Part shown: piece after piece, positions 3,569 to 22,900 of the stretch
Numbering within the stretch: position 1 is the first letter of the stretch
Layout of the letters: each line of letters starts with the position of its first letter
Source of the DNA: Candidatus Ratteibacteria bacterium
GTDB lineage: Bacteria; Ratteibacteria; UBA8468; B48-G9; DTJG01
DNA length: 64,000 nt
Direction of reading: 5' to 3'
Assembly (NCBI GenBank): GCA_041656495.1
Contig: JBBADJ010000004.1
Span: 84,644 to 148,643 of the forward strand
Made by a program: the position numbers and the translations under genes
The notes under the pieces: generated by a model
Databases searched by the model: none
The model's input: only the letters and a program-made list of their open reading frames with translations
What the model was told of the DNA's origin: nothing

Positions 3569-4609
3569 ATGCACAAATGGAAAATCGGAACTATCATAGG
3601 AATATTCATTCTTTCCGCGTTCCTTCTTTCTTCTCCTTCCGCATACAGCCAAAGAAAGAGCACCGCAAAACCGATTGAATTGGCATACTCCATCTTCTTT
3701 CCTACAAACCATACGCTCTCTCTTTCTGCGGCGGCATGGGCGAAAGAAATAGAAAAAAGGAGTAATGGAAGAGTCAAAATCAACCTCTTTTATGGCGGAA
3801 CCTTGACCCCTGCCGACAAATGTTACGATGGCGTGGAAAAAGGTATTTCCGACCTTGGACAGTCCTGTATGGCATACTCTCGGGGACGCTTTCCCTTGAG
3901 CGAAGTTATAGATCTTCCCCTCGGCTACCAGAACGGGCTTCAGGCAACCAGAGTAATCAATGCCTTTTACCGTAAGTTTAAACCTGCGGAATATGCGGGT
4001 GTTCAGGTAATGTATTTTCATGCCCATGGACCAGGACTTCTTCATACCAAAAGTCCTGTCCGCTCTTTGGAACAGGTAAAAGGAAAAAAAATACGCTGTA
4101 CGGGTCTTGCCGCAAAAGTGGTAACTTCTCTCGGAGGAGTACCGGTGGCAATGCCTATGGGAGAAACCTATGATGCATTAAGCCGAGGTATTGTCAATGG
4201 TTCAATGGCGCCTGTGGAATCTCTTGAAAACTGGAAGTGGGGAGAAGTTGTCGGATGTACCACAGAAAATTATGGCTCTTCTTACACAACCGGAATGTTT
4301 GTTGTAATGAATAAAAATAAATGGAATAGCCTTCCTGCGGATATCAAACAGATCTTTCTCAGAGTCAATAATGAATGGATTGATAAGAGCGGAAGAGCAT
4401 GGGACGAAGCTGACGCAAAAGGAAGAATCTTTATCAAAAAACTCGGCAATACAGTTGTTCCCATTTCAAAAAAAGAAAATGCGCGATGGGCGAAAGCTGT
4501 AAAACCGATTATGGATGAATATGTAACCGCAATGCAAGCAAAAAGACTTCCGGGAAAAGAAGCGCTTGACTTCTGTCTTTCACAGGTAAGACGATTTGCG
4601 CCTAAATAA
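3569..4609 (+). CDS. TRAP transporter solute-binding protein, DctP family (paralogue 1)
   Basis: N-terminal signal peptide. DctP-family similarity over the full length. Near-identical stretches to the second copy at 6386-7411. Confidence 0.8.
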   Translation: MHKWKIGTIIGIFILSAFLLSSPSAYSQRKSTAKPIELAYSIFFPTNHTLSLSAAAWAKEIEKRSNGRVKINLFYGGTLTPADKCYDGVEKGISDLGQSCMAYSRGRFPLSEVIDLPLGYQNGLQATRVINAFYRKFKPAEYAGVQVMYFHAHGPGLLHTKSPVRSLEQVKGKKIRCTGLAAKVVTSLGGVPVAMPMGETYDALSRGIVNGSMAPVESLENWKWGEVVGCTTENYGSSYTTGMFVVMNKNKWNSLPADIKQIFLRVNNEWIDKSGRAWDEADAKGRIFIKKLGNTVVPISKKENARWAKAVKPIMDEYVTAMQAKRLPGKEALDFCLSQVRRFAPK

Positions 4610-4672
4610 GAAAAGATAGAATCAATAAAAGGTATACCCAACCCAGAAGGCAGAGAAAAAAATCTTCTCTAT

Positions 4673-6139
4673 TCAGGCGGAAGAATTCTTCCAGAATGTA
4701 GAAAGAATCTCTACGGTTCGTTCCGCAACCTTCCAGCCACCGTCGCTTCCTACAGGATTACTTGCAGGCACTGAACCATATCCGCCTCCTGCCACAGAAC
4801 GATTGCTCGGCACATACGTACCCGCGCCCGCAAGTTGTACCAGAAAGGTCTGCACCGCCTTGCTTTGAGCTTTAATGTAAATCCCGAAATCAAGGTAGTA
4901 TTCAAAACAGTTGGTTGCAATAGCAATATCGCCAAGACGGATGATATGAAGTTCAGTAGGAATTGTCGGCTTCTGTTGCTGATTGTTGAAACGATCAATA
5001 ACACGGCGGTACCACCTCATTCTCCGATAGAAAGAAGAAAGAGTACAGTACCACCGCGATTCCTTTCTATATGAATCGGGATCTTCCATAAAACGTTTTT
5101 TCTCTTCTTCATATTGAGAGTAAAACCTGTCCGCCTCCTTTCTCGCATATTCCATATCTTTACTTGTTAAGAAAGATTGCGGAAGATCCATTCTTTCCAC
5201 ATGATGAAGAAGGAAAGGAAGGTTTGGCGAAGCATGGTTCAAGGCATGCATAATATCCTCAACTGAAGAAAGAATACGATGGGCAATTTCTTCACGGTTG
5301 CTTCTTCCATGTAATGAAGCCATCCGCGCATCTGCCTCTTTTTCATATAACAAATGAGGAGATTGATCTCCTGCCGCAGAGCACTGTGCAAGAATAAAAA
5401 GCTTTTCTCCAAACCTTTTACGTAACGCGACGCGAACATCATGCCAGTAATCTGCGCTTATACGAAACTCTCCTTCCTCTTCCTGCGAAGGACAAGGAAT
5501 GTTTACCACCAATCCGGTTACAAGGCCTTCGCTATTCTTTGTGACCAAAAGGTTCACGCTATGATCTTCGTATCCTTCTATATGGCTGAAGAGTTCAGTA
5601 TCGGTCTTTCCATACATTGTAGAGATTCCCTCTCTATTTACCCATCTTCGGTTTCTTCCCACAACCGCATATCCTTTCCCATACAAGGTACTTCCCTCTT
5701 TACGAGAATTCCATGCCTCTTTAATCACATCTGCAATACGCTCAGTGGCAAAAGCGACATATTCCTCCACAGACATCACAGGAAGCGCAAGAAATTCTCC
5801 TTCATTATGAATATCCAATTTATTCTCTATTGAAACCTCGGGAGCAGTATGAGTATGGGTCGCATGAAGAATAATCTTCATCGGATCAATCTCTCTATTT
5901 CTCTGGGAAACCAAGGTACGAACCGCATCACGAAAAGAATTCGGAATAGAAACAAGATCACAACTTACCAGAAGAAGATGATCTTTGGAAGAGTCTATTG
6001 CCAATACTGTTATTGTAACAGGGTCCTTCACTCCTTCAGAAACCCTGGAATGAAATTGTCCCGCTAACAAAACCGGCTGATCCGGAGTAATATCGGCTTG
6101 CGCCCATCCAATCTTCAGGATTTCACTATTATCCTTCAT
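4673..6139 (-). CDS. neutral/alkaline ceramidase-like hydrolase family protein
   Basis: LHATHTHTAP motif resembles the ceramidase HTHSGP zinc site. Length and N-terminal-domain pattern fit. The likely start is the ATG after the AAGGGGG ribosome-binding site (MKDNSEIL), inside the 4673-6211 ORF. Confidence 0.45.
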   Translation of the reverse strand: MKDNSEILKIGWAQADITPDQPVLLAGQFHSRVSEGVKDPVTITVLAIDSSKDHLLLVSCDLVSIPNSFRDAVRTLVSQRNREIDPMKIILHATHTHTAPEVSIENKLDIHNEGEFLALPVMSVEEYVAFATERIADVIKEAWNSRKEGSTLYGKGYAVVGRNRRWVNREGISTMYGKTDTELFSHIEGYEDHSVNLLVTKNSEGLVTGLVVNIPCPSQEEEGEFRISADYWHDVRVALRKRFGEKLFILAQCSAAGDQSPHLLYEKEADARMASLHGRSNREEIAHRILSSVEDIMHALNHASPNLPFLLHHVERMDLPQSFLTSKDMEYARKEADRFYSQYEEEKKRFMEDPDSYRKESRWYCTLSSFYRRMRWYRRVIDRFNNQQQKPTIPTELHIIRLGDIAIATNCFEYYLDFGIYIKAQSKAVQTFLVQLAGAGTYVPSNRSVAGGGYGSVPASNPVGSDGGWKVAERTVEILSTFWKNSSA

Positions 6140-6385
6140 ATGCGCCCCCTTTATTCTCTGAACCATGCTATTGTATTTTTTTGATTCTATCCTTTTTCTC
6201 ATCTTACACAAAAAGGGAAAAAAAACAATACTTTGAGCAATTCTCTAAAATAACAGAGGTATAATCTTTTAAGAATAAAAAGTTTCAAACCTACACTATT
6301 ACAGATCAAAGCGATTTGTACTTCAAGAGAAAGAAGGTATAATAAAATTTTAATGTATACGGTTCAACCTAGGGGGGGCCGAGTT

Positions 6386-7411
6386 ATGAAAAAAAGAGTC
6401 AGTGTTTTTGTTGCAATTGCTATACTCTTTTCTGTTTCTGTCGCGTCCGCCCAGCGTGCGCCGCGAACAAAGCCCATTGAACTTGCCTACTCCATCTTCT
6501 TCCCCTCCAACCATCTTGTCGCAATAGCCTCGGCAGAATGGGCAAAAGAGGTAGAAAAACGGACCAATAGACGCGTAAGGATCAATATTTTTTATGGCGG
6601 GACCCTCACACCTGCAGATAAATGTTATGACGGAGTAGAAAAAGGAATTTCTGATCTAGGGCAGTCGTGTATGGCATATACGCGAGGAAGATTTCCATTA
6701 AGCGAGGTTATAGACCTTCCACTCGGATACCAAAACGGTCTACAAGCAACCAGGGTAATCAATGCCTTTTACCAAAGGTTCCAACCCGCAGAGTATGCGG
6801 GAGTGAAAGTAATGTATTTTCATGCCCATGGTCCAGGACTCCTCAGTTCCAAAAGTCCTGTCCGCACACTGGAAGATCTAAAAGGAAAAAAAATCCGCTG
6901 TACTGGTCTTGCCGCCAAAGTTATCAGCGCGCTTGGAGGAATCCCAGTCGCAATGCCTATGGGAGAAACTTATGATGCGTTAAGCAGAGGTATTGTTCAA
7001 GGTTCAGTATCTCCTATTGAATCCTTAAAAAGTTATAAATGGGGCGAAGTGGTAAACAGTACCACTGAAAATTATGGCTCTGCTTACACAACCGGAATGT
7101 TCGTAGTAATGAATAAAAATAAATGGAATAGCCTTCCTGCGGATATCAGGCAGATTATTGAAAAAATTAACCGAGAATGGATTGATAAAAGCGGAAGAGC
7201 ATGGGACCAGGCAGATAAAGAAGGAAGAGAATTTTTGACAAAACGCGGCAATTCTATCCTGTCTCTCTCTAAAAATGAAAATGACCGTTGGCGCAATGCG
7301 ATAAAACCGATTATGGACGAATATGTGGCGGATATGAAGGCAAAGGGTCTTCCGGGACAAAGGGCGCTTGATTTCTGTCTTTCTCAGATAAAAAAAGGGT
7401 CCGCGAAATAA
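6386..7411 (+). CDS. TRAP transporter solute-binding protein, DctP family (paralogue 2)
   Basis: Signal peptide MKKRVSVFVAIAILF. High identity to the 3569-4609 product. Directly followed by dctQ and dctM. Confidence 0.85.
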   Translation: MKKRVSVFVAIAILFSVSVASAQRAPRTKPIELAYSIFFPSNHLVAIASAEWAKEVEKRTNRRVRINIFYGGTLTPADKCYDGVEKGISDLGQSCMAYTRGRFPLSEVIDLPLGYQNGLQATRVINAFYQRFQPAEYAGVKVMYFHAHGPGLLSSKSPVRTLEDLKGKKIRCTGLAAKVISALGGIPVAMPMGETYDALSRGIVQGSVSPIESLKSYKWGEVVNSTTENYGSAYTTGMFVVMNKNKWNSLPADIRQIIEKINREWIDKSGRAWDQADKEGREFLTKRGNSILSLSKNENDRWRNAIKPIMDEYVADMKAKGLPGQRALDFCLSQIKKGSAK

Positions 7412-7476
7412 AGATCTTTTATCCTTCAAAGAAAAAAAACTTTGAATGTTGCCACAGTTATCTTTAGGAGAAAGCT

Positions 7477-7962
7477 ATGATAAAGGGAATTGAATCATTT
7501 GTATTTCAATCAAGTAAAGCATTGCGGCTCATCTCAGGAGTCGCCTTAACATTTTTAATGTTATTAACAATAGCGGATGTTATCCTTCGCGCATTTGGAA
7601 AACCCATAGTCGGCGCCTATGAGTTGGTCGCCTTCTCAGGCGCGATTGTCATTGGATTTGCGCTTCCGATTACTTCATGGCACCGCGGCCATATCTACGT
7701 TGAATTTATAACAGATATTCTTCCGAAAAAAATCAGAAATGCCTTTCATATCATTACCCGTCTGATGGGAATTATCTTCTTCTTGCTTGCAGGATGGAAC
7801 CTTTTTTTAGTAGGAATGGATCTTAAACGAAACCAGGAGGTCTCCCTTACTCTACGGCTTCCTTTTTATCCTATCGCCTATGGACTTGCGGTGAGCGCTT
7901 TTCTTCTCTGTTTAGTCTTATGTGTCGATATTTTCAAAATAGTAAGAGGTGAATATGAATGA
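7477..7962 (+). CDS. dctQ: TRAP transporter small permease subunit DctQ
   Basis: 161 aa with four predicted transmembrane helices. Position between dctP and dctM. Confidence 0.8.
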   Translation: MIKGIESFVFQSSKALRLISGVALTFLMLLTIADVILRAFGKPIVGAYELVAFSGAIVIGFALPITSWHRGHIYVEFITDILPKKIRNAFHIITRLMGIIFFLLAGWNLFLVGMDLKRNQEVSLTLRLPFYPIAYGLAVSAFLLCLVLCVDIFKIVRGEYE

Positions 7963-9256
7963 AGTACTTTTTGGTATCATCGGACTCTGCACCGCACTCC
8001 TGCTCTTTCTCACCGGCATAGAATTGGGTTTCGCCATGGCGATTGTTGGATTTCTTGGATTTTCTCTGCTACGATCCTTTGAAGCTGGTCTTAATATGGT
8101 CGCAAAAGATCTTTTTGATGTTTTTTCTTCCTATAGTTTTACTGTTATCCCTCTCTTTGTCTTAATGGGACAGATCGCTTTTAATGCGGGAATCGCACGC
8201 AGGCTCTATAAAGCCGCCTATAGATTCTTCGGCCATATTCCTGGCGGGCTCGCTGTCGCTACTGTGGCAGGCGCCACCATTTTCAAGGCAATTTGCGGAT
8301 CGTCTCCTGCCACCGCCGCTACATTCGCCAGTGTCGCTGTTCCTGAAATGGATAGATACGGATATGCAAAAAAGCTTTCTACCGGCATTGTTGCGACAGT
8401 AGGAACCCTTGGAATACTTATTCCTCCAAGCGTTACGCTGATTATCTTTGGAGTTATTACCTCCCAATCCATTGGAAAACTCTTTCTTGCAGGTTTTTTT
8501 CCAGGGCTTATCATTGCATTTCTCTTTATCGTAATTATCATCGGTTGGTGCAAAATAGACCCTTCCCTCGGACCTCACGGAGAACGGTCTACATGGCAAG
8601 AACGGTTCAAAACATTGCCTGAAGTCTTCTTTGTGGGAATTGTTTTTTTACTGGTAATCGGCGGTATGATGAAAGGATTTTTTTCTCCCACAGAAGCTGG
8701 AAGCGTAGGCTGCCTTGCAGTACTCCTTTTGGCGATTGGAGAACGTGCATTTTCTTTCAGAAAGTTCTTTACATCGTTGGATGAATCAATCAAGATCGCC
8801 TGCATGGTTCTTATGCTCATTGCCGGATCAACCATTCTTGGCCATTTTCTCGCAGTAACACGGATTCCGATGATTGCCGCAGAATGGGTCGCAAACCTTC
8901 CCCTCCATCGGTACCTGATTATGACAATTATCGCCTTTATCTATCTGATTGGAGGATCTTTTATTGATGATCTTGCCTTTATGGTTCTTGCGACTCCTAT
9001 CTTCTATCCTGTTGTATTAAAGCTGAACTTTGATCCTATCTGGTTCGGTATTCTTATCGGTATCACGGTTATGATCGGAGTGGTAATTCCGCCTGTAGCA
9101 ATGAATGTCTTCATTGTAAAGAAAATTACTAAAACACCGCTTAGTGTAATTTACAGCGGTGTGTATCCATTCCTCTTAAGCCTTATTCTCTGTGCGATTC
9201 TTCTCTTTATTTTTCCGCAGATCGCCACATTCCTGCCATCGGTGCTAATGAGGTAG
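7955..9256 (+). CDS. dctM: TRAP transporter large permease subunit DctM
   Basis: About 430-aa polytopic membrane protein with DctM-family similarity. The ATG lies after an AGAGGTGA ribosome-binding site and overlaps the dctQ stop. Confidence 0.85.
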   Translation: MNEVLFGIIGLCTALLLFLTGIELGFAMAIVGFLGFSLLRSFEAGLNMVAKDLFDVFSSYSFTVIPLFVLMGQIAFNAGIARRLYKAAYRFFGHIPGGLAVATVAGATIFKAICGSSPATAATFASVAVPEMDRYGYAKKLSTGIVATVGTLGILIPPSVTLIIFGVITSQSIGKLFLAGFFPGLIIAFLFIVIIIGWCKIDPSLGPHGERSTWQERFKTLPEVFFVGIVFLLVIGGMMKGFFSPTEAGSVGCLAVLLLAIGERAFSFRKFFTSLDESIKIACMVLMLIAGSTILGHFLAVTRIPMIAAEWVANLPLHRYLIMTIIAFIYLIGGSFIDDLAFMVLATPIFYPVVLKLNFDPIWFGILIGITVMIGVVIPPVAMNVFIVKKITKTPLSVIYSGVYPFLLSLILCAILLFIFPQIATFLPSVLMR

Positions 9257-14086: not shown

Positions 14087-14648
14087 AAACCACCTGAAAA
14101 TTTGTCCAGAAAAAATTTCCCCTTAATACCTACTTTTCTCTAAAAAGGGATATAGCGCTTTAATGGTATCTTCCGAAGCATACAAAAAATCATCTCTCAT
14201 CTCTTTGCTTTTCACCTGCCTTAAGAAATCTCTTTTTCAAGATCAGAGTTTCGCAATCTATGACAGACTTAATCTAATAAAATTGTAGAAGAACTTATAG
14301 AAGGTGTCAAGAAAAAAATATAGGCATTTCACCTTTTTTTTCGCGCTACTGCGACATTTTTCTGATAGGCTGTGTTAGTACACTTTTAATTTTTCAATGA
14401 CACATTTTTCCGATATACTTTGTTTGACAAAAAAACTCACTCCTGTATACTAAATTGTAAGACTTTTTTTCTTATGATAAATAGAACAATGACTTGAAAC
14501 ACATTATAGATATAGAATCTCCCAAGAAATAAAAAAAACCTTGTTGCTTCTCAATTACTCAATCCCCTGTAAAAAATCATTACACAATCTATTTTTCTAT
14601 CGTATCAATAGAACTAAAGAAAATCTCCCTCACCATAGGAGAAAATCT

Positions 14649-15794
14649 ATGAACCCAAAAATCAACAAAATTCTGGAGAAAACCATTCAAACAACCTACT
14701 CAAAAGATTCTCCCCTGTCATTTTGTGTGGTAGGCGCTGGAAACGGAGGGCTTGCCATGGCGGGATATCTTGGACTCCTTGGCTTTCCCACCACACTCTA
14801 TAATAGAAGCAGAGAAAAACTTCATGCGGTCCAATGGCATAAAGGAATTGAGCTATCCGGTGTTATGGAAGGATTTGGGAAAATTACTCTTGCAACAACC
14901 TCAATGGAAGAAGCAATTAAAGATGCAGATATTATTATGGTTACAGTTCCCGCTACCGGACATTACGAAGTAGCAAAAAGCATGGCTCAGTATCTCCGTA
15001 CAGGACAAATTGTAACACTTAATCCAGGAAGAACCGGCGGAGCTCTCGCATTCAACCATGCTCTTAGTAAAAATGGTTGCTGCACACATCCGCTTATAGC
15101 AGAAACCTCTACATTTATTTTTGCTTCAAGATCAATCGGCGGAGGAAAAGCAAAAATTTTCAGAATTAAGAACTCTGTCCGATTTGCCACACTACCTGCA
15201 CATTTTATCCCACAAACCCTTCCTCTTCTCAATAAAGCCTTTCCTCAATTCATTCCAGGAGATAATGTCCTTTCCACAGGAATGGAAAATATCGGCGCTA
15301 TCTTTCATCCTGCCCTCACCCTATTGAACGCAGGTTGGATTGAAAGAACAAAAGGCAATTTTGATTACTATAGCGATGGTATTACTCCATCTATTGCAAA
15401 CGTATTAGAAGTAATTGATGCAGAACGAGTTAAGGTCGCCTCTGGATTTGGCATGCATACAGTTTCTGCCCGCGAATGGCTCTACCTTACCTATGACGCG
15501 CCAGGACGAAACCTTTACGAAGCAATAAAAAATACCTCTGCGTACAGAGGCATAAGCGCTCCTCCCACAATTCTCCATCGTTATGTCTTTGAAGATATTC
15601 CTATGAGCCTTATTCCCTTAGCATCTTTAGGAAGCATGATCAATATCAAAACTCCCTGGATAGAAAAAATCATTGATCTTGCAAACTTAATGCACAAGAA
15701 AGATTACCGAAAAGAGGGACGTACCATTACACACATGGGTCTGCAAAAACTCTCAATGCAACAACTCCATAAAATAGTTTTAGGAATAGATTAA
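14649..15794 (+). CDS. NAD(P)-dependent opine dehydrogenase family protein
   Basis: Rossmann motif VVGAGNGG at the N-terminus. Length and pattern of octopine/nopaline (opine) dehydrogenase family. AGGAGA ribosome-binding site before the ATG at 14649. Confidence 0.6.
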   Translation: MNPKINKILEKTIQTTYSKDSPLSFCVVGAGNGGLAMAGYLGLLGFPTTLYNRSREKLHAVQWHKGIELSGVMEGFGKITLATTSMEEAIKDADIIMVTVPATGHYEVAKSMAQYLRTGQIVTLNPGRTGGALAFNHALSKNGCCTHPLIAETSTFIFASRSIGGGKAKIFRIKNSVRFATLPAHFIPQTLPLLNKAFPQFIPGDNVLSTGMENIGAIFHPALTLLNAGWIERTKGNFDYYSDGITPSIANVLEVIDAERVKVASGFGMHTVSAREWLYLTYDAPGRNLYEAIKNTSAYRGISAPPTILHRYVFEDIPMSLIPLASLGSMINIKTPWIEKIIDLANLMHKKDYRKEGRTITHMGLQKLSMQQLHKIVLGID

Positions 15795-15946
15795 TCTACT
15801 TTCACAAAACGAAAAATAGGGGATAAAACTCTTAATGAATAAGCTTTTTTTAGATTCATTAACAAAAGAGACGCAAAACACCTACAAGAAAAGTAATGGT
15901 TAACTGTTTCGTAAGAATGCAATTGATTACTACAAGGAGAAGCATT

Positions 15947-16621
15947 ATGAATCCTATCTATCCGTTTATAATAAAAAGTCCTATCGGATTAGTCGCTCTA
16001 TTAGTAATTGTCACAGGATGGATTCTGGCGTGGATCACTCGTATTCTGTTGACTTCTCTTTTGGAATTATTCCAATTTAATAAACTTTCCGTACGGCTTG
16101 GTATCCATGAGTTTCTCAAAAAAGGTGAAGTTTCTCGTTCTGCATCAGAACTTACCGGAAGATTTGTATACTGGCTTATTCTGATGGTAACTTTTTTGAA
16201 AGCAGCCAACCTTCTTGACAATGAAGTATCTACAGAACTTCATCGTCAAACTATCGCGGCAATACCTGCTTTTATAAGCGCACTATTAATCCTTGCAGTT
16301 GGATTGATCGCTATTTTTTTTCTTGCGGGCTTTGTTCGGACACTTGTCCGTAACGCGGGCAATCCTTATGCAAATCTCTGGTTTCAGATAACACGCGGAA
16401 TCGGAGTAACTTTAGTTTTGATTTTTGCCATTGAACAAACTAGAGTACAAAGTATGGTTATTACTGGAATTTTTTTCATTCTCTTTGCTGCGGCTGCCTT
16501 TGGAACAGCGCTTGCCTTTGGATTAGGTTCTCGGGAAATAGCAGGAACCGCTATGCAACAGTGGCTTGAGGAGCTGAAAGAGCGTCATCGCGATCTCTCT
16601 CAACCAGATATGGATGAATAA
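15947..16621 (+). CDS. multi-pass membrane protein (mechanosensitive-channel-N-terminal-like 'conserved TM helix' type)
   Basis: About 225 aa with several hydrophobic helices. AGGAGA ribosome-binding site. Lies 14 bp upstream of the next gene. Confidence 0.4.
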   Translation: MNPIYPFIIKSPIGLVALLVIVTGWILAWITRILLTSLLELFQFNKLSVRLGIHEFLKKGEVSRSASELTGRFVYWLILMVTFLKAANLLDNEVSTELHRQTIAAIPAFISALLILAVGLIAIFFLAGFVRTLVRNAGNPYANLWFQITRGIGVTLVLIFAIEQTRVQSMVITGIFFILFAAAAFGTALAFGLGSREIAGTAMQQWLEELKERHRDLSQPDMDE

Positions 16622-16635
16622 AGCAAGGAGGAAGA

Positions 16636-18492
16636 ATGAGTATCTATCTTACCAAAGATGATTGTGTTGGACTTATTCGATCGGGAATTGACGCCCATAC
16701 ACTTGGATTAATTTCTCTCACAGAACTACTCCATGAATGCGGGTACCGTTCCATTTATGCACACGAAGATCTCTGTACACTCTTGAATAATCCTGACCAA
16801 CCTAAAAGTATTCGCGAACTCTCAAACTGGATCCTTGCATACAAGATTACTGTACTTGGATATAGCTGGCGTCTTGATCCAGAAAAAGGAGTTTACCTTA
16901 TGGCAAGCCTTATCCATGGATTAAAACAAGGACAACTTTTTAGAGAGCAAGGCGGTCCGATTAGAGCTATCTGTTTTGGAGGACTCCCCAGAACATGTCT
17001 ACTTATAGAAAAAAAAATACGAGAAGCTGATGCGGTCTTCAATGGCGACGAAAGCGCAAATGAGACCCTTGAACGGTTTGGTATTTCCAAGTTTTCACTT
17101 CCCCATGAATTCAGCAAAGAACTTAACTACGATAATGATAGATTTTCTTTTGGAAAAGAAATCGTAAAAAAAGAGGCGTGGAGAAACGTACAACCTGTTG
17201 AGTATAAAGAATACCCTATATTAGGAAAAAGAGAAGAAACAGTCCTTACACGATTGGAACATAGGAAAAAATATCGTCTTCCACCTCTTATACGCTGTCA
17301 TGCGGGTCCTTTTCTCCCTCATAGAGAAGAAGCGGTCCGTCTCTTTTTGGAGTGGACAAAAAACCTTGCGGAAAGAAGATTGCTCGACATACTTTCCATA
17401 GGTATTTCACAACGGGCACAATCCAATTTTGGCGAAAATTGGGAAGATAAACCTGATGGTGGAGGAGTACCGATTAATTCGCCAGAAGAGTTTCATGAAG
17501 TCTGGAAAACCGCAAGACCAATGCTCGTCCGTTCTTATGCAGGTACAAAAAATATTCGCGCTATGGCAAAAATGTATGAGCGCACCATTCATATCGCATG
17601 GCACGCGCTTTCTCTATGGTGGTTCAGCCATATAGATGGAAGAGGTCCCTATTCTGTTCAGGAAAACCTTCATCATCATCTTGATACATTTCGCTATATT
17701 GCAAAAACACAAAAACCATACGAACCTAACATTTCCCATCACTTCGCTTTTCGTGGATCAGATGATGCAACCTCCATCGCAGCCACTGTTCTTGCTGCCC
17801 GCACCGCAAAAGCAATGGGAATCCAATCCCTTATTCTACAGGTTATGCTAAATACGCCTCGCTCTATCTGGGGAATACAAGATCTCGCCAAAGCGCGTGC
17901 CACTCTTCAACTCATACAACCATTGGAAGATTCCTTATTTCACACTATTCTTCAACCACGAGCTGGATTAAACTCTCTCTCTCCTTCTCCTGAAAAAGCT
18001 ATGGCACAACTTGCCGCAGCCACTGCTCTTATGGATGATATAGAACCGTACAATCCTCTGAGCCCCCCTATAATCCATGTTGTTAGTTACTCCGAAGGAT
18101 CTGAACTTGCAAATCCAGATATTATCCATGAAAGCATTCAAATTACCCGTCATGCCCTTGAGAAATATAGAACCTTAAGAAAAAAAGGTGAAATAAACGA
18201 TATGTCTTCTGACCCAGAGCTGCATAACCGAACAGAAGAACTTCTCGCAGAGACCAAAACCATACTTTCTGCTATTGACTCTGCAATTCCAAACCCTTAT
18301 TCCGCAGAAGGATTGTATGAAACCCTCCATCGCGGATTTTTTGCAGTTCCTCATCTTCTTTCTCAACGCGATGAATTTAAAAAGGCAGTCCAATGGAGAA
18401 CCAGAACTATCCGAGGATCTGTTAAAACAATCGACATCAATAATAATCCGATCTCATTATCACGAAGAAAAGAGATGCTAGCGCAACTATAA
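16636..18492 (+). CDS. cobalamin(B12)-binding-domain protein fused to a large uncharacterised C-terminal domain
   Basis: The N-terminal ~130 aa fit a B12-binding Rossmann-like domain (DAHTLG = DxHxxG). No CxxxCxxC motif, so not a radical SAM enzyme. The C-terminal ~480 aa were not recognised. AGGAGG ribosome-binding site. Confidence 0.45.
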   Translation: MSIYLTKDDCVGLIRSGIDAHTLGLISLTELLHECGYRSIYAHEDLCTLLNNPDQPKSIRELSNWILAYKITVLGYSWRLDPEKGVYLMASLIHGLKQGQLFREQGGPIRAICFGGLPRTCLLIEKKIREADAVFNGDESANETLERFGISKFSLPHEFSKELNYDNDRFSFGKEIVKKEAWRNVQPVEYKEYPILGKREETVLTRLEHRKKYRLPPLIRCHAGPFLPHREEAVRLFLEWTKNLAERRLLDILSIGISQRAQSNFGENWEDKPDGGGVPINSPEEFHEVWKTARPMLVRSYAGTKNIRAMAKMYERTIHIAWHALSLWWFSHIDGRGPYSVQENLHHHLDTFRYIAKTQKPYEPNISHHFAFRGSDDATSIAATVLAARTAKAMGIQSLILQVMLNTPRSIWGIQDLAKARATLQLIQPLEDSLFHTILQPRAGLNSLSPSPEKAMAQLAAATALMDDIEPYNPLSPPIIHVVSYSEGSELANPDIIHESIQITRHALEKYRTLRKKGEINDMSSDPELHNRTEELLAETKTILSAIDSAIPNPYSAEGLYETLHRGFFAVPHLLSQRDEFKKAVQWRTRTIRGSVKTIDINNNPISLSRRKEMLAQL

Positions 18493-18525
18493 GAAAGATA
18501 TTTCATATAACTATGGAGAAAAGCT

Positions 18526-20034
18526 ATGGGAGGTATAGTAGTTGTTACTGGAAAAGATAAGAAGAACCTTTTACATACAATAGCACCAAAATTATCACAT
18601 CGGGGGGATCTAAAACAAACCACGCACACTTCGCACAACGCTCTTCTTTCTTATCTTTCTTCCTCTTCTTGTGATGTGAACAACCGATTCCAAATCCTCT
18701 CCTCGGAAAAAGAGAATTATACAGTTATCTTTGATGGAAAAATGTATAACCATAATTATCTTAAAAAAAATCTCAAGGTCCACCATTCTTTCTCTACAAC
18801 AGGAGATGCAGAACTTCTTCTCCGTCTCTATCAGGAATCTGGCACAGATATGTTGAGAAAGCTCGATGGTCCCTTTGCATTAGTAATTGCAACTCCACAC
18901 ACTCTTCTTTTGGCGCGAGACCAATTCGGAATAAAACCTCTTTATTATACATGGAACTCAAATCAATTCATTGCAGCAAGTGAAATCAAGGCATTTCCTC
19001 CCTTTTCAAATGTAATGGAATTACCACCAGGACATGTTATATCTACTAATACTAAAAAACCATGGATGTTTGCATCCTCTTTTTCTTCTAAAAAAAGTTC
19101 TTTTCTTTCTTGCTCGTTACAAAAAATAGAAGATGCAATCCATACACTCCTTACAAAAGCAGTAAAGAAACGGATAGATACTACTCAAGAAATCGGACTA
19201 TTTCTCTCAGGAGGATTAGATAGCAGTTTAATTGCAGCTATTCTAAAACCGCATATCTCCACTCTCCACACTTTTACTGCAGGAATTAAAGGAGCACCAG
19301 ACCTTGAATCAGCTAGAAAAGTCGCAACATTTCTCGGTACAATACATCATGAGTATACCTACACAAAAGAAAAAATAGAGAATGCATTGCCAACAATTAT
19401 CCAACACCTTGAATCCTTTGACGCGCCACTTGTTCGGTCTGCCATACCAATGTTTTTTATTTCTACTCTTATGTCAAACTATGTTCAAAACGCTCTTTCC
19501 GGAGAAGGAGCTGATGAACTCTTTGCAGGGTATGATTATCTTCACCATTTCTCTACAACAAAGAAAATGAGAGAAGAGCAGATAAAAATAATACACTCAC
19601 TCCACAAGACAGGTCTTCAACGCGTTGACAGAATAAGCATGGCTCATGGGGTCGATGTAAAAATTCCTTTCCTTGATAGGAACCTTGTAAGATTCGTTCA
19701 AAAAATCCCTGTCCGTTTTTTAACAACAAACAATCACAAAGAAGCAAAATGGATCTTACGGGATGCGTTTCAAGGAATTCTTCCTCATTCCATTCTCTAT
19801 AGGAAAAAGATGAAGTTCTCCGAAGGTGCAGGTTCTGCAGAGATTGTCGCAAAAATAGTTTCAGAGAAAATCAACCCTCGTGAATTTCAAAGAGAACAAG
19901 AGCTCATGCCACATCTCTGGCTCTCTTCTCCTGAAGAACTCTTTTATTATCGGATATGGAAAAAGGTCATGCCAAAAGGTCTTTCTCCCTTGATAGTTGG
20001 AAGAACTCTCGACAAAAAAGCTGTCGCATACTAA
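18526..20034 (+). CDS. asparagine synthetase (AsnB) family protein lacking the N-terminal Cys nucleophile
   Basis: Clear AsnB similarity (SGGLDSS PP-loop, SGEGADELFAGY). Residue 2 is Gly (MGGIVVV) instead of the Cys of MCGI. Glutamine hydrolysis is therefore unlikely; beta-lactam-synthetase and lasso-cyclase homologues share this substitution. Confidence 0.75.
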   Translation: MGGIVVVTGKDKKNLLHTIAPKLSHRGDLKQTTHTSHNALLSYLSSSSCDVNNRFQILSSEKENYTVIFDGKMYNHNYLKKNLKVHHSFSTTGDAELLLRLYQESGTDMLRKLDGPFALVIATPHTLLLARDQFGIKPLYYTWNSNQFIAASEIKAFPPFSNVMELPPGHVISTNTKKPWMFASSFSSKKSSFLSCSLQKIEDAIHTLLTKAVKKRIDTTQEIGLFLSGGLDSSLIAAILKPHISTLHTFTAGIKGAPDLESARKVATFLGTIHHEYTYTKEKIENALPTIIQHLESFDAPLVRSAIPMFFISTLMSNYVQNALSGEGADELFAGYDYLHHFSTTKKMREEQIKIIHSLHKTGLQRVDRISMAHGVDVKIPFLDRNLVRFVQKIPVRFLTTNNHKEAKWILRDAFQGILPHSILYRKKMKFSEGAGSAEIVAKIVSEKINPREFQREQELMPHLWLSSPEELFYYRIWKKVMPKGLSPLIVGRTLDKKAVAY

Positions 20035-20098: not shown

Positions 20099-21850
20099 TT
20101 AGCGGAAAACCCGTAAAAACCCCTGTACTTCCGGCACATCTTCCCGTGAAACAACAGGTCCGTCTGGTCCATCGTTCCATACTGTTAAGGGCGATGGTCC
20201 GTCGGCAACACCGGTAATCTCGCAGGTAAGACGAGAGTTTTCCAAATTCGCAAATGAAAGTTGGGTATCAAAAAGACGCTTGCAGATCATACTGATAAAT
20301 TCCCGGGAAGTAGGTATCGTTTCATACTCAGTGATTCCTTCTACAATACCTGAGACCACTTTTTCCCATTCCTGAAGCGCAATAACGTCAATCCGCTCTT
20401 CATGGGTCATAATCATTCCGAACGCAAGACTGTCAAATCCAATGCTTGCGGCAGTAATTCCTCGTTTCACTGCCTTTTCCATTTGTAATGAAGGCGCTTC
20501 TCCAAGGAAAGGAACATGATCCCTAAGGATTTCTGATTTAATGGACACTCTATCGCCCAGTTGATCACCAGAAGCGGAAATCATTGTAAAAGCAGGATGA
20601 TGCGGTATTCTGTCTAAAGCAAAACCATGGCGGCCAAGGGTACTTCTTTGCTGATAAGGCAAGGGACGCCATACTTTTTGATTTCCATATAACTGGCCGG
20701 GAAGACTATTATTACATAAAAAGGTTACATTGCGTTCTAAAAAATAAGGAAGAGAAGAAAGTCCTATTTCGCCATAGTGAGCATTGATAATACGGCTATG
20801 CCTAATTTTTGCGCGTGAAAAGGCTTCGTCTATCCGTTTAAAGTTATTCTGAACTGTCTTGTCATCAAGATCCCGACCAGTCTCATGGTCAAGGCCAATA
20901 CCTTCAAAACAGGTAACCTTGCCTCCCTCGGAAAGATCGGGTTTGTCAGCAAGCGTTCCAAATGGTTTCCAATCAGAATATGCTTTGTAAAAATCATCGC
21001 GAAACGCATGCGCAGAGAAATCCGCGCCGGCCTTCTGAAAAAGCCGCGAAGCTCCTTGCCAATCAGTAGGACCCAACTCATCTATAAAAAGTCCTAAATT
21101 AGGGGAAATCCCATGCTTGTTAAATATATCCACATATTGAAATGCGGTATGGGTGCCGTGGCAATCATCTATACGAGCGGAAAGATAGGGAGGAATAGAT
21201 CGTAAAGGAAAGGGTTTACGCGCAACTTGAACCAACCCACGCCAAAAAAGTCCGTCAAGCCCGCGAAGATGGCCAAAAACCTCTTCCTGATAGAGTGCGT
21301 TTCCTATACCGAAAAAAAGAGTCCGCATCTTCTCTTCTTCCCGCAAAAGAATAATCGGAACTTCTTCTGTATCTGTCGCAATAACAGAAGAATGGGCATC
21401 CTTCTTAAAACGGAGAGAAACGGTTTCTTCAAGGAATAGTATCTCTTCTCCTGATCTATGACCCACAGCAAGAGAATGACAGGGATCTGGAAACGAAAGC
21501 CCGCATATACTTCCTCTATCTTCTATGGTAGGAGCGAGATCTTTTAGGGGTTCGGGCCAAGCAAAAATTTCACGGTCAAATGAGATCAAGCCAACTCCTG
21601 CTGTAACCGCCTCTTTTATCTCTGTTGCCCTTTCTTTTGAAAGAGCCGCTCCAGCGCCGTCATGACCTATAATAATAAGAGCGCGATCAAAATATCCTTC
21701 AGGAACTTCCCACCTATTCGCAGAATCAAATACCTCCCAAGCTGCGCCAAAATGGTCAAGTGCGGCACATACTGTTACATCAACAGTTTTACGAGATGCA
21801 ACTCTGGCGCTATCAATTACTACAAGAACGCTCCGATTCCCTGCAGACAT
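20099..21850 (-). CDS. hypothetical protein (583 aa)
   Basis: Long ORF with a good ATG context. No family recognised by eye. Confidence 0.4.
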   Translation of the reverse strand: MSAGNRSVLVVIDSARVASRKTVDVTVCAALDHFGAAWEVFDSANRWEVPEGYFDRALIIIGHDGAGAALSKERATEIKEAVTAGVGLISFDREIFAWPEPLKDLAPTIEDRGSICGLSFPDPCHSLAVGHRSGEEILFLEETVSLRFKKDAHSSVIATDTEEVPIILLREEEKMRTLFFGIGNALYQEEVFGHLRGLDGLFWRGLVQVARKPFPLRSIPPYLSARIDDCHGTHTAFQYVDIFNKHGISPNLGLFIDELGPTDWQGASRLFQKAGADFSAHAFRDDFYKAYSDWKPFGTLADKPDLSEGGKVTCFEGIGLDHETGRDLDDKTVQNNFKRIDEAFSRAKIRHSRIINAHYGEIGLSSLPYFLERNVTFLCNNSLPGQLYGNQKVWRPLPYQQRSTLGRHGFALDRIPHHPAFTMISASGDQLGDRVSIKSEILRDHVPFLGEAPSLQMEKAVKRGITAASIGFDSLAFGMIMTHEERIDVIALQEWEKVVSGIVEGITEYETIPTSREFISMICKRLFDTQLSFANLENSRLTCEITGVADGPSPLTVWNDGPDGPVVSREDVPEVQGFLRVFR

Positions 21851-22039: not shown

Positions 22040-22900
22040 TCAGCGACCATCCCATCCAGCAAGGCGTGCCAACATCCACCAGAACGCCCGTCCCTTCAAT
22101 GCGCCATTCAATGGTCTGGTATGAGCCGCGGAAGGAGGAAGAGCAATACGATGATTAGGGTTTCTTCTCATCCATTCATCTGCCCAATTTTTTACAACTC
22201 CCGCTTCCTTGTAATCACAGGTATCCCGCGCATAGAGTTCCATATAATTTATTCTGGCGTCAGGATCGTAACTTTCAATATCTGCAAAATCAAAAAGAAC
22301 CTTGCTGTTATTTTTGCAAAAGATACGGATCTGTTCGTTACGCCGGTTAAGGTTTCCTTCTTTTCCTGAACCATCAAGGTGTCCTGTCATATACACAAAG
22401 GTTACTTTAGGAAATTCCCGTTCAAGCTGGTGCATTAGTTCAAGATAGGTTCTGATATTCTCTTCAGAAGCATTGCTTACCTGGCCGCACCACGACCAAA
22501 TCATAAGAGTTCTGTCTCTTCCCGGTCCATTAAGAAAATCTCGTGTCTTACGAGCCCACTCGGTTCTATTAGGATTACCGAGATCTCCGCTCGGCGTAGT
22601 ATCAAAAAGGGATAAGCTTCCCTCTTTCTTCTGATTAAAGCCAAAACAGGCTGGATCTTCCTTCATAAGAGCGCGCATCCCCGCCACAATCTGACTTCCA
22701 TGCGAAGTATGTCCATACGCAACCCGAAAGAGCTCTTTTGCTTTTGAAAAATATTCTACTGGAATTTTTTCAATATCTGTACAAGTATGATCAATAATAA
22801 GCGCCTTCCCCACAGCCGCAACCGATACCGGTACACTCCACCACAACAGGGAAATTCCTCCCATTACCAACAAAGAGCGCTTCACCCAGCCTTTTTTCAT
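22040..22900 (-). CDS. secreted hypothetical protein (286 aa)
   Basis: N-terminal signal peptide. AGGAGA ribosome-binding site. No family recognised. Confidence 0.4.
   Translation of the reverse strand: MKKGWVKRSLLVMGGISLLWWSVPVSVAAVGKALIIDHTCTDIEKIPVEYFSKAKELFRVAYGHTSHGSQIVAGMRALMKEDPACFGFNQKKEGSLSLFDTTPSGDLGNPNRTEWARKTRDFLNGPGRDRTLMIWSWCGQVSNASEENIRTYLELMHQLEREFPKVTFVYMTGHLDGSGKEGNLNRRNEQIRIFCKNNSKVLFDFADIESYDPDARINYMELYARDTCDYKEAGVVKNWADEWMRRNPNHRIALPPSAAHTRPLNGALKGRAFWWMLARLAGWDGR

What the first reader, a model, noticed from the sequence alone, without database searches (positions are those of the whole stretch)
14649..20034. Operon of membrane protein, B12-binding-domain protein and AsnB homologue with Cys1 replaced by Gly, downstream of an opine-dehydrogenase-family gene
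Three co-directional genes run from 15947 to 20034, with 14-bp and 33-bp gaps and good ribosome-binding sites. The AsnB-family protein has an intact synthetase PP-loop (SGGLDSS). It begins MGGIVVV rather than MCGI, so it cannot use glutamine through the canonical Ntn cysteine. The same substitution is seen in beta-lactam synthetase, carbapenam synthetase and lasso-peptide cyclases; all of these perform ATP-dependent intramolecular amide formation. The middle gene has a DxHxxG B12-binding-like domain, but no radical SAM motif and an unassigned ~480-aa C-terminal domain. The upstream opine dehydrogenase would catalyse reductive condensation of an amino acid with a keto acid. Together this could be an uncharacterised small-molecule (N-carboxyalkyl amino-acid amide or lactam-like) pathway.
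Basis: partly seen in the sequence, partly recalled or inferred. Interest (0 to 1): 0.7.

Follow-up and report, generated by a model that had tools for sequence, protein, structure and literature searches.

The report
Opine dehydrogenase plus new B12 mutase operon
This is a four-gene operon built around a very widespread but unstudied enzyme pair, an opine dehydrogenase and a new vitamin-B12 mutase-like enzyme, and it probably makes an unknown amidated amino-acid-derived small molecule, possibly for osmotic protection.

Summary
All four ORFs, the 14- and 33-bp gaps, the ribosome-binding sites, MGGIVVV, SGGLDSS and DAHTLG are present, and the starts equal NCBI's gene calls for a Candidatus Ratteibacteria MAG.

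The interpretation needs three corrections.
2. The opine dehydrogenase is the mutase's core partner, not a bystander. It lies adjacent on the same strand in 69 of 80 genomes across many phyla, and next to all four distant relatives checked.
3. The AsnB homologue is not beta-lactam-synthetase-like. It is a decayed member of a canonical clade (107 of 119 nearest homologues start MCG/VCG), and two sister operons looked up keep a Cys-type AsnB. Amidation is therefore likelier than lactam formation.

ATP-dependent amide-forming enzymes accompany the pair in 39 of 80 loci. MscS channels or the MscS-like membrane protein accompany it in 25 of 80. The best reading is a new B12-dependent pathway to an amidated amino-acid or opine solute, perhaps osmoprotective. 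The substrates are unknown.

The parts
14424..14451 (+). Sigma-70-like promoter candidate (TTGACA-16-TATACT, 11/12) upstream of the first gene
   Evidence: This is a consensus match only; the number of such sites in the region is not above shuffle expectation.
14649..15794 (+). Opine dehydrogenase family gene (381 aa, CENDH-like), the core partner of the mutase-like gene
   Evidence: Pfam Octopine_DH 1e-43. PDB 1bg6 CENDH 1.6e-75. Catalytic H220, R311 and D316 (CENDH H202, R292, D297) and the GxGxxG motif are at least 97% conserved in 53 sequences (the window protein plus 52 orthologues). The gene is adjacent on the same strand in 69 of 80 loci. The start equals the NCBI call. RBS AGGAGA.
15947..16621 (+). 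Small polytopic membrane protein (224 aa) with MscS-type TM-helix repeats but no MscS beta or vestibule domains
   Evidence: Pfam PF05552, 29.5 bits against a cut-off of 22, two stretches. NCBIfam 'msc' is below its cut-off. The hydropathy profile shows four hydrophobic segments, some long enough for two helices. An orthologue lies in the same operon position in 21 of 80 loci and in L090 and L091.
16636..18492 (+). 618-aa fused B12-binding domain plus glutamate-mutase-E-type TIM barrel, a member of a large conserved family with no Pfam, NCBIfam or PDB sequence match
16690..16707 (+). DAHTLG (residues 19-24), the DxHxxG lower-axial-ligand motif of B12-binding domains
   Evidence: His21 and Gly24 are invariant in 24 close homologues and in 30 sequences that include distant ones. 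In the superfamily profile this His aligns with the corresponding motif His of solved B12 domains (4jgi_A 2.8e-7, 2yxb_A 1.4e-6, MetH 2.4e-5).
18526..20034 (+). AsnB-family synthetase (502 aa) with a decayed glutaminase domain and an intact synthetase domain
   Evidence: TIGR01536 325.8 bits (cut-off 267.1); PRK09431 428.7 bits (cut-off 499). PDB 1ct9 9.4e-69. It keeps 98 of 122 conserved C-domain positions but only 42 of 70 N-domain positions.
18526..19095 (+). Degenerate Ntn-glutaminase domain (residues 1-190): C2G, G42S, H43Y, R45S, N70D, E72K relative to the nearest homologues
19207..19227 (+). PP-loop SGGLDSS (residues 228-234) of the synthetase domain
   Evidence: The motif is invariant in 14 operon-linked homologues.

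Best explanation
Positions 14649-20034 form one four-gene operon built on an ancient two-enzyme module.

Module component (i) is a CENDH-like opine dehydrogenase. Enzymes of this kind use NAD(P)H to interconvert an amino acid plus a 2-oxo acid with an N-(1-carboxyalkyl) amino acid through an imine.

Module component (ii) is a previously unrecognised family of single-chain cobalamin enzymes. An N-terminal His-on B12-binding domain is fused to a glutamate-mutase-E-type TIM barrel. By analogy with its nearest structural relatives, it most likely catalyses an adenosylcobalamin radical 1,2-rearrangement of an amino-dicarboxylate such as glutamate, or of the polycarboxylate opine itself.

In this genome the module has two additions. 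The first is an AsnB-type synthetase whose glutaminase domain has decayed. I infer that it adenylates a carboxylate of the product and amidates it with free ammonia. Sister operons use a glutamine-hydrolysing version, and other lineages use D-Ala-D-Ala-ligase-like or glutathione-synthetase-like ATP-grasp ligases instead. The second addition is a small MscS-related membrane protein. Sister operons also carry a full MscS channel.

The most likely product is a small, nitrogen-rich, charge-reduced solute: an amidated opine or a branched amino-acid amide. The MscS association suggests a compatible-solute (osmostress) role.

Shown: gene structure, folds, motifs, and co-conservation. Inferred: B12 radical chemistry, order of steps, substrates, amidation, and physiological role.

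For: B12 binding. The DxHxxG His and Gly are invariant. The superfamily profile hits solved B12-binding domains at 2.8e-7 to 1e-3.

Distant relatives. They carry PF02310 and PF06368, and are fused to the MutL/GlmL domain (PF13941) or to an ATP-grasp ligase.

Pairing. The opine dehydrogenase is adjacent on the same strand in 69 of 80 species loci. It also immediately precedes all four distant relatives looked up. Its catalytic His, Arg and Asp are conserved.

Amide-forming partners. AsnB-like in 26 loci and Ddl-like in 14, union 39 of 80. L085 has a fused ATP-grasp followed by a class-I GATase.

Amidation rather than cyclisation. L021, L090 and L091 carry Cys-type AsnB in the operon.

Osmotic hint. 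The membrane protein is present in 21 loci and MscS in 9, union 25 of 80. L090 has the order opine DH, membrane protein, mutase-like gene, AsnB, MscS; L091 has opine DH, membrane protein, mutase-like gene, MscS, AsnB. A Na+/H+ exchanger and a P-type cation ATPase are neighbours in some loci. A PTS-EIIA(Ntr)-type domain is fused to the opine dehydrogenase in 19 loci. MscS genes are known to co-localise with ectoine biosynthetic clusters (PMC13342039).

Literature. None of the 10 literature searches returned a description of this pair.
Against: No biochemical datum exists, and the barrel has no sequence-level match to any characterised mutase. No MutL-like reactivase gene lies in the window or within 10 kb in any of the 80 loci. 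No cobalamin riboswitch or B12-related gene was seen in the window, although only about 20 of the window's ORFs were scanned. In about half of the loci the pair stands alone, without a ligase or a membrane protein, including in amino-acid-fermenting Firmicutes. That fits a catabolic role equally well. The osmotic link rests on neighbourhood only, and only in some lineages. A slow radical enzyme is an unusual choice for bulk solute synthesis, although the aminomutase route to N-epsilon-acetyl-beta-lysine is a precedent (my own knowledge). The window operon itself lacks a full MscS.
Confidence: 0.5

Rival explanations
1. The Cys-less AsnB homologue acts like beta-lactam synthetase, carbapenam synthetase or a lasso cyclase, closing an intramolecular amide (lactam) on an N-carboxyalkyl amino acid made by the opine dehydrogenase.
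For: The Ntn Cys is replaced by Gly while the PP-loop is intact. Most operon-linked AsnB homologues elsewhere also lack Cys, with N-termini M[A/S/P/T/N]GIAGI. An opine carries both a secondary amine and carboxylates, so it could cyclise (inference).
Against: The protein is far closer to AsnB (9.4e-69) than to BLS or CarA (about 1e-21). The lasso-cyclase and macrolactam models are far below their cut-offs. Of the nearest homologues, 107 of 119 have Cys and intact glutaminase motifs. The orthologous operon position is filled by Cys-type, glutamine-hydrolysing enzymes in L021, L090 and L091, which implies that ammonia is the nucleophile.
Confidence: 0.1
2. The opine dehydrogenase and mutase-like pair is catabolic. 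It would form a B12-dependent fermentation or salvage route that rearranges an amino acid (or cleaves an opine) and oxidises it. In that case the AsnB homologue and the membrane protein are only loosely associated neighbours in some lineages.
For: Known glutamate mutase and the ornithine and lysine aminomutases act in anaerobic amino-acid fermentation, each followed by a dehydrogenase or lyase (established knowledge). The pair stands alone in many loci, including Acidaminobacter, Tissierella, Alkaliphilus and Clostridium. Carriers are mostly anaerobes.
Against: ATP-consuming amide ligases sit in the same co-directional cluster in 39 of 80 loci, and one is fused to the mutase in P0163. No lyase, CoA-transferase or other typical fermentation gene recurs among the neighbours. 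The pair also occurs on L084, a contig that looks like a small, gene-dense genome (my impression from the gene content), next to ribosomal and cell-wall genes.
Confidence: 0.2
3. The module makes an unusual (D- or branched) amino-acid building block for the cell envelope, for example for a peptidoglycan stem peptide. The Ddl-like or AsnB-like enzymes then ligate or amidate it.
For: Ddl-like ligases in 14 loci score 132-188 bits on D-Ala-D-Ala ligase models, below cut-off. FemAB-like and Mur-ligase genes lie nearby in L060 and L084. AsnB-family enzymes are known to amidate diaminopimelate in peptidoglycan (my own knowledge). Opine dehydrogenases create a D-centre (established for CENDH).
Against: The Mur and FemAB genes are on the opposite strand or are sporadic (2 loci). 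No recurrent mur or mra genes appear among 101 neighbours. The MscS, EIIA and ion-transporter associations are not explained. The module is absent from most bacteria that have ordinary peptidoglycan.
Confidence: 0.12
4. The product is an opine-type metallophore (staphylopine or pseudopaline-like) that is exported through the membrane protein.
For: Opine dehydrogenases (CntM) finish opine metallophores (PMC9774294, listed; my own knowledge). A polycarboxylate or amide opine would chelate metals (inference).
Against: No nicotianamine-synthase-like gene, no Cnt-type ABC importer and no EamA or MFS exporter recurs in 80 loci. The dehydrogenase is closest to CENDH and has no PDB sequence hit to a CntM-type enzyme.
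Confidence: 0.05

Closest known systems
Glutamate mutase (GlmS/GlmE = MutS/MutE, adenosylcobalamin-dependent; PDB 1cb7, 1i9c)
   Different: The window protein is a single chain with the order S then E, rather than two subunits. Structural-alignment identity is 15%, and neither the window protein nor its family profile gives any Pfam or PDB sequence hit. There is no linked MutL or methylaspartase. The obligate partner is an opine dehydrogenase. The substrate is unknown.
D-ornithine 4,5-aminomutase (OraS/E) and lysine 5,6-aminomutase (KamD/E)
   Different: Those enzymes need PLP held by a lysine of the Rossmann domain. The N-domain here has no invariant lysine. The partner dehydrogenase belongs to a different family (opine dehydrogenase).
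N-(1-D-carboxyethyl)-L-norvaline dehydrogenase (CENDH, Arthrobacter sp. 1C; PDB 1bg6), an opine dehydrogenase
   Same: E-value 1.6e-75 over the full length, with the catalytic His, Asp and Arg conserved.
   Different: CENDH has no known B12 partner (my own knowledge). In 19 loci the orthologues carry an extra N-terminal PTS-EIIA-type regulatory domain. Substrates are untested.
Asparagine synthetase B (E. coli AsnB, PDB 1ct9) and the NAGGN amidotransferase AsnO
   Same: Two-domain architecture, PP-loop and the SGEGxDE motif. The protein passes TIGR01536. AsnO amidates a compatible solute precursor in an osmoregulated operon (my own knowledge), which is the same logic proposed here.
   Different: Cys1 and the glutamine-binding residues are lost. 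The protein is below the PRK09431 and TIGR03104 cut-offs. The acceptor substrate is unknown.
Pyrrolysine biosynthesis (PylB radical mutase, PylC ATP-grasp ligase, PylD NAD dehydrogenase)
   Same: The same three-part logic: a radical carbon-skeleton mutase that makes a methyl-branched amino acid, an ATP-dependent amide ligase, and an NAD-dependent C-N oxidoreductase. One partner ligase (L064) weakly matches PylC.
   Different: PylB is radical SAM, not B12. PylD is not an opine dehydrogenase. There is no homology beyond the ATP-grasp fold. This is an analogy only.
Ectoine gene clusters with co-localised MscS genes
   Same: Solute-biosynthesis genes co-localise with an MscS-type channel gene (PMC13342039). 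L090 and L091 here show the same arrangement.
   Different: The enzymes are entirely different. The window operon has only the MscS-like TM protein, not a full channel.

Membership tests
Opine dehydrogenase family (Pfam PF02317, CENDH or octopine DH type) | Octopine_DH helical domain above Pfam's gathering score, plus an N-terminal Rossmann GxGxxG | tested here: met
   149.4 bits against a cut-off of 30. GAGNGG at residue 29, and G29, A30 and G31 are at least 97% conserved.
Opine dehydrogenase family (Pfam PF02317, CENDH or octopine DH type) | Catalytic His-Asp pair and carboxylate-binding Arg (CENDH H202, D297, R292) | tested here: met
   H220, D316 and R311 align to them. They are at least 97% conserved in 53 sequences (the window protein plus 52 orthologues).
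Opine dehydrogenase family (Pfam PF02317, CENDH or octopine DH type) | NAD(P)H-dependent reductive condensation of an amino acid with a 2-oxo acid | not testable with these tools
   Needs an enzyme assay.
Adenosylcobalamin-dependent carbon-skeleton mutases (glutamate mutase type) | B12-binding Rossmann domain with the DxHxxG His-on motif | tested here: met
Adenosylcobalamin-dependent carbon-skeleton mutases (glutamate mutase type) | E-type TIM-barrel substrate domain | tested here: met
Adenosylcobalamin-dependent carbon-skeleton mutases (glutamate mutase type) | Sequence membership of Pfam PF06368 (Met_asp_mut_E) | tested here: not met
   No Pfam hit for the window protein. Only the distant relative P0163 passes, at 27.5 bits against 26.6. 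The protein is therefore fold-related but not a member of the glutamate mutase family proper.
Adenosylcobalamin-dependent carbon-skeleton mutases (glutamate mutase type) | Substrate 'arginine claw' and catalytic Glu of GlmE (R66, R100, R149, E171) | tested here: inconclusive
   Invariant R220, R336, E363 and near-invariant R373, R442 lie on the barrel.
Adenosylcobalamin-dependent carbon-skeleton mutases (glutamate mutase type) | Associated MutL/GlmL-type protein | tested here: not met
   No MutL-like sequence in the window or in the 80 loci. The domain is fused to the mutase only in the distant relatives P0184, P0226 and P0213.
Adenosylcobalamin-dependent carbon-skeleton mutases (glutamate mutase type) | AdoCbl binding and radical isomerisation | not testable with these tools
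   Needs spectroscopy and an assay.
PLP- and B12-dependent aminomutases (OAM, 5,6-LAM) | PLP-binding lysine in the Rossmann (B12) domain | tested here: not met
   No invariant or near-invariant Lys in residues 1-140 of 24 homologues.
B12-dependent radical SAM enzymes | CxxxCxxC cluster motif and a radical SAM domain | tested here: not met
   No such motif, only 6 Cys, and no Pfam Radical_SAM hit.
Glutamine-hydrolysing asparagine synthetase (AsnB; TIGR01536, PRK09431) | N-terminal Cys nucleophile and glutamine-binding residues (E. coli R49, N74, E76) | tested here: not met
   C2G, R45S, N70D and E72K, plus G42S and H43Y, relative to 57 Cys-bearing nearest homologues.
Glutamine-hydrolysing asparagine synthetase (AsnB; TIGR01536, PRK09431) | Synthetase domain with the PP-loop SGGxDS and conserved catalytic motifs; HMM cut-offs | tested here: met
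   SGGLDSS at residues 228-234, and SGEGADELFAGY conserved. TIGR01536 325.8 bits against 267.1; PRK09431 428.7 bits, below its 499 cut-off.
Beta-lactam synthetase, carbapenam synthetase and lasso-peptide cyclase clade | Closer to these than to AsnB; passes their models | tested here: not met
   BLS 3.1e-21 and CarA 1.4e-21 against AsnB 9.4e-69. NF033535 121.6 bits against 525; NF033561 53.4 bits against 300.
MscS mechanosensitive channel family (for the 224-aa membrane protein) | Pore-lining TM3 plus beta-domain and C-terminal vestibule (PF00924, PF21082) | tested here: not met
   Only the PF05552 TM-helix repeat is found. The protein is MscS-related, not a full channel. Full MscS genes are present in the sister operons L090 and L091.

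The most novel reading that the evidence does not exclude
The opine dehydrogenase and the single-chain mutase together form a new class of adenosylcobalamin chemistry. In this reading the B12 enzyme rearranges an opine (a secondary-amine polycarboxylate) or its imine. The keto-acid imine made on the dehydrogenase would then serve as a PLP-independent handle for a 1,2-shift. The amidated product would be a hitherto unknown compatible solute, widespread across many mostly anaerobic bacterial phyla (PVC, Planctomycetota, Spirochaetota, Acidobacteriota, Bacillota and others).
Probability: 0.15. Interest if true: 0.92.

Novelty: new variant of a known kind. Interest (0 to 1): 0.76.

Why it matters
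Only about a dozen adenosylcobalamin-dependent isomerases are known, and each defined new radical chemistry. Here is a candidate additional one. Its family is very large: more than 2295 proteins in one search, with relatives in at least 401 species genomes. It is unusually conserved, at about 50-60% identity across phyla, and has no Pfam or NCBIfam model. It is always coupled to an opine dehydrogenase, a pairing not found in the searchable literature.

The finding makes three things directly testable:
- a new B12-dependent reaction;
- a bacterial physiological role for CENDH-type opine dehydrogenases, whose natural function is obscure;
- possibly a new osmolyte of anaerobic and uncultured phyla.

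Cultured carriers exist for experiments: Acidaminobacter hydrogenoformans DSM 2784, Rectinema subterraneum SURF-ANA1 and Alkalibacterium iburiense JCM 12662.

Tried and rejected
- Sequence searches of the 618-aa protein against Pfam, NCBIfam and PDB gave nothing, either as a single sequence or as the family profile A1. Only the structure search and a wider superfamily profile were informative.
- The AlphaFold-database fold library was not available.
Nine combined opine dehydrogenase, cobalamin, mutase, ATP-grasp or osmolyte terms, and none returned a description of the pair. The tenth looked for the ectoine-MscS precedent.
- Rfam found no cobalamin or other riboswitch in the window.
- A MutL-like partner was not found in the window or in the 80 loci.
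- A radical SAM B12 enzyme is rejected (no cluster motif).
- A PLP-dependent aminomutase is rejected (no conserved Lys in the B12 domain).
- A beta-lactam-synthetase-like cyclase is rejected (see the rival explanations).
- The immediate window context gives no functional clue: a TRAP transporter, a HerA-like ATPase, GH20, Ogt, an HpcH aldolase, and a 583-aa protein with no family match.

Full report
**1. Observation**

The four co-directional ORFs are real. They lie at 14649-15794 (381 aa), 15947-16621 (224 aa), 16636-18492 (618 aa) and 18526-20034 (502 aa).

Their exact translations are on record as NCBI gene calls of a Candidatus Ratteibacteria MAG. NCBI names them 'NAD/NADP octopine/nopaline dehydrogenase family protein', 'hypothetical protein', 'cobalamin-binding protein' and 'asparagine synthase-related protein'.

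- The gaps are 152, 14 and 33 nt.
- Each start has a Shine-Dalgarno-like AGGAG or GGAG.
- A TTGACA-16-TATACT site lies at 14424-14451. No + strand terminator-like site separates the first two genes. This is a consensus scan only.

**2. The 618-aa protein**

It has no hit in Pfam, NCBIfam or PDB sequences, even when searched with a 24-sequence family profile. Yet it belongs to a very large and strongly conserved family.

- More than 2295 homologues were scored. The best 120 are 52-60% identical over the full length, and they come from Kiritimatiellia, Verrucomicrobiota, Planctomycetota, Armatimonadota, Sumerlaeota, Lentisphaeria and others.
- A scan of one genome per species confirmed relatives in 401 stretches. 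The sources include Bacillota (Acidaminobacter, Alkaliphilus, Tissierella, Alkalibacterium), Spirochaetota (Rectinema, Treponema), Acidobacteriota, Bacteroidota and one Aenigmatarchaeota genome.
- An AlphaFold2 model built on the alignment is confident: pLDDT 83.5 and pTM 0.86. It shows an N-terminal Rossmann-like domain followed by an eight-stranded beta/alpha barrel and a helical tail.

An exhaustive profile search found 571 cluster representatives. These include more distant subfamilies that bridge to known families at the sequence level:

- PF02310 B12-binding (P0179, 33.0 bits against a 32.1 cut-off);
- PF06368 Met_asp_mut_E (P0163, 27.5 bits against 26.6);
- C-terminal fusions to the MutL/GlmL domain PF13941 (P0184, P0226, P0213);
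- a fusion to a glutathione-synthetase/RimK-type ATP-grasp ligase (P0163).

A profile spanning close and distant members hits solved B12-binding domains significantly: 4jgi_A 2.8e-7, the 'coenzyme B12-dependent mutase' 2yxb_A 1.4e-6, and MetH 2.4e-5. The family's invariant His aligns with the motif His of those domains, which I take from established knowledge to be the cobalt ligand.

I conclude that the 'unassigned C-terminal domain' is a GlmE-type barrel. The protein is a single-chain S+E cobalamin mutase-like enzyme of a new sequence family. It is not a member of the glutamate mutase family proper (PF06368 is not met), and it is not an aminomutase of the PLP type (there is no conserved Lys in the B12 domain).

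**3. The opine dehydrogenase is the core partner**

The first gene is a genuine opine dehydrogenase relative.

- It scores Pfam Octopine_DH 1e-43 and 1.6e-75 to CENDH 1bg6 over the full length.
- CENDH's H202, R292 and D297 align to H220, R311 and D316. These are at least 97% conserved in 53 sequences, the window protein plus 52 orthologues.
- In the 80 best species loci, an orthologue (33-62% identity) lies on the same strand next to the mutase-like gene in 69. In most it is within about 250 nt; elsewhere it is separated by only the membrane or AsnB gene. It can lie upstream or downstream.
- Of the 11 loci without it, four or five have too little flanking DNA on one or both sides to tell.
- All four distant relatives I looked up are immediately preceded by an Octopine_DH gene. 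These relatives are only about 25-30% identical, and some are fused to MutL or to an ATP-grasp domain.
- One metagenomic ORF (P0270) even reads through from an Octopine_DH domain into the mutase N-domain. This could be a real fusion or a sequencing artefact.

The pairing is therefore ancient and close to obligate.

**4. Accessory genes**

Counts within 6 kb on the same strand in the 80 loci:

| Accessory gene | Loci |
|---|---|
| AsnB-like | 26 |
| D-Ala-D-Ala-ligase-like ATP-grasp | 14 |
| Either ligase (union) | 39 |
| 224-aa membrane protein | 21 |
| Full MscS channel | 9 |
| Either membrane protein (union) | 25 |

Other neighbours are sporadic. The Ddl-like proteins score 132-188 bits on Ddl models, below the cut-offs. 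In L085 the mutase is fused to an ATP-grasp domain and followed by a class-I glutamine amidotransferase or gamma-glutamyl hydrolase-type protein.

The closest relatives of the window operon have these orders:

- L090 (Kiritimatiellia): opine DH, membrane protein, mutase-like gene, AsnB (510 aa), MscS.
- L091: opine DH, membrane protein, mutase-like gene, MscS, AsnB (507 aa), a 61-aa ORF, a second AsnB-like (445 aa).

Nineteen orthologous dehydrogenases carry an N-terminal PTS-EIIA-2 domain of about 150 aa. A Na+/H+ exchanger, a TauE-type exporter and a P-type cation ATPase are neighbours in some loci.

**5. The AsnB homologue**

- It is AsnB-like, not BLS-, CarA- or McjC-like. It scores 9.4e-69 to E. 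coli AsnB against about 1e-21 to BLS and CarA.
- It passes TIGR01536, falls just below PRK09431, and is far below the lasso-cyclase and macrolactam models.
- Its 119 nearest homologues are only 43-48% identical. Of these, 107 begin MCG or VCG and have intact GHVRL...NGEIYNH glutaminase motifs.
- Two of these homologues are shown to lie in the same operon as a mutase-family member: P0317 in L090 and P0283 in L091. A further one, P0315, shares its contig length with the L004 contig, where tblastn finds a Cys-type AsnB about 4 kb downstream of the mutase gene on the same strand. Several more share contig lengths with mutase hits; this is suggestive only.
- Relative to 57 Cys-bearing homologues, the window protein has C2G, G42S, H43Y, R45S, N70D and E72K. 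It keeps only 42 of 70 conserved N-domain positions but 98 of 122 C-domain positions. The glutaminase domain is decaying while the synthetase domain is maintained.
- A second operon-linked type, common in Planctomycetota and others, has a deletion of about 55 aa in the Ntn domain and starts M[A/S/P/T/N]GIAGI. The L021 partner, in contrast, has MCGIAGI.

The same operon slot is filled in different lineages by glutamine-hydrolysing and by Cys-less enzymes. The simplest chemistry is therefore carboxylate amidation by ammonia, channelled from glutamine or taken free, rather than intramolecular lactam formation.

**6. Mechanistic proposal**

Shown:

- a cobalamin-type His-on domain;
- a GlmE-type barrel with a dense set of invariant Arg, His, Asp and Glu residues (R220, H222, Y301, D334, R336, E363, D377, E487; near-invariant R373, K419, R442, H481);
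- an intact opine-dehydrogenase catalytic set;
- an intact adenylating PP-loop domain;
- the co-conservation described above.

Inferred:

- (i) The mutase performs an AdoCbl radical 1,2-rearrangement of an amino-dicarboxylate (the glutamate to 3-methylaspartate type) or of the polycarboxylate opine.
- (ii) The dehydrogenase links or unlinks an amino acid and a 2-oxo acid through an imine.
- (iii) The AsnB homologue amidates a carboxylate with NH3.

One concrete, low-confidence scheme is: Glu, then 3-methyl-Asp, then 3-methyl-Asn, then N-(1-carboxyethyl)-3-methyl-Asn.

The recurrent MscS and MscS-like genes, the ion-transport neighbours and the EIIA(Ntr)-type fusion point to an osmostress or ion-homeostasis role. 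This parallels the documented co-localisation of MscS genes with ectoine clusters (PMC13342039). As a rough estimate of my own, a handful of MscS genes among a few thousand genes gives about 1% chance adjacency per locus. The observed 9 of 80, plus L090 and L091, is well above that.

**7. Weaknesses**

- There is no biochemistry.
- The barrel shows no sequence-level link to a characterised mutase.
- No MutL or adenosyltransferase gene lies nearby.
- About half of the loci have the bare pair, including in amino-acid fermenters, which fits a catabolic role.
- Cell-wall-flavoured neighbours (Ddl-like, FemAB, Mur ligase) occur in a few loci.
- The window operon lacks a full MscS.

These points are carried as the rival explanations.

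**8. Verdict**

It is not a Cys-less AsnB curiosity. It is a pan-bacterial, unannotated, B12-mutase-like family locked to an opine dehydrogenase. The searchable literature describes neither the pairing nor the family. Novelty: a new variant of a known kind, meaning a known fold class with a new family, a new partnership and an unknown reaction.

Noticed in passing
L008-L038 (19 loci, e.g. L009:8181-8630, L022:8319-8753); L082:6374-7978: In 19 of 69 loci the orthologous opine dehydrogenase carries an N-terminal PTS-EIIA-2 (EIIA-Ntr-like) domain of about 150 aa. This suggests phosphorylation-dependent regulation of the module. The window protein lacks the domain.
   Followed up: partly
L084:8001-11801 (P0184); also P0226 and P0213: Distant relatives of the mutase-like protein are fused to a MutL/GlmL domain (PF13941), and P0184 is still preceded by an Octopine_DH gene. 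In L084 a Mur-ligase gene and a FemAB gene lie on the opposite strand nearby.
   Followed up: partly
L085:35-4463 (P0163): The gene order is Octopine_DH, then a single protein combining B12-binding, MutE-like and GSH-synthetase/RimK ATP-grasp domains, then a Peptidase_C26/class-I GATase. This is a third, independent solution for an ATP-dependent amide-forming step next to the pair.
   Followed up: partly
L091:12916-15988: Two different AsnB-family genes lie in one operon with the pair: a 507-aa Cys-type and a 445-aa type with a truncated N-domain. The two types may therefore not be redundant; one possibility is two separate amidations.
   Followed up: no
P0270 (460 aa, metagenomic fragment): A single ORF reads from an Octopine_DH domain (residues 133-277) straight into the mutase N-domain (residues 296-404). 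It may be a natural dehydrogenase-mutase fusion or an assembly or sequencing artefact.
   Followed up: no
L049:9950-11842 (Candidatus Aenigmatarchaeota chromosome): This is the only archaeal locus. My crude ORF caller splits the mutase-like gene into two ORFs (253 and 343 aa), and no opine dehydrogenase lies within 10 kb. The gene may be a pseudogene or a recent transfer.
   Followed up: no
window 20099-21850 (-): A 583-aa protein convergent with the operon has no Pfam or NCBIfam match at all. Its function is unknown.
   Followed up: partly
window 4673-6211 (-) and 22040-22900 (-): Two further ORFs, of 512 aa and 286 aa, have no Pfam match. The 286-aa ORF begins with a hydrophobic stretch that could be a signal peptide.
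   Followed up: no
window 40001-52000: G+C drops to 0.34-0.37 here, against 0.37-0.46 over the rest of the window. This may be a foreign or otherwise distinct segment. The genes were not examined.
   Followed up: no
window 3569-9256: A TRAP transporter locus with two DctP-type binding-protein paralogues (3569-4609 and 6353-7411), a DctQ gene (7477-7962) and a large permease-like ORF (7949-9256). A 512-aa gene with no family match lies on the opposite strand between the two DctP genes.
   Followed up: no
window 54298-54369 and 57027-57100 (-): Two tRNA genes. They are the only Rfam matches in the window.
   Followed up: no
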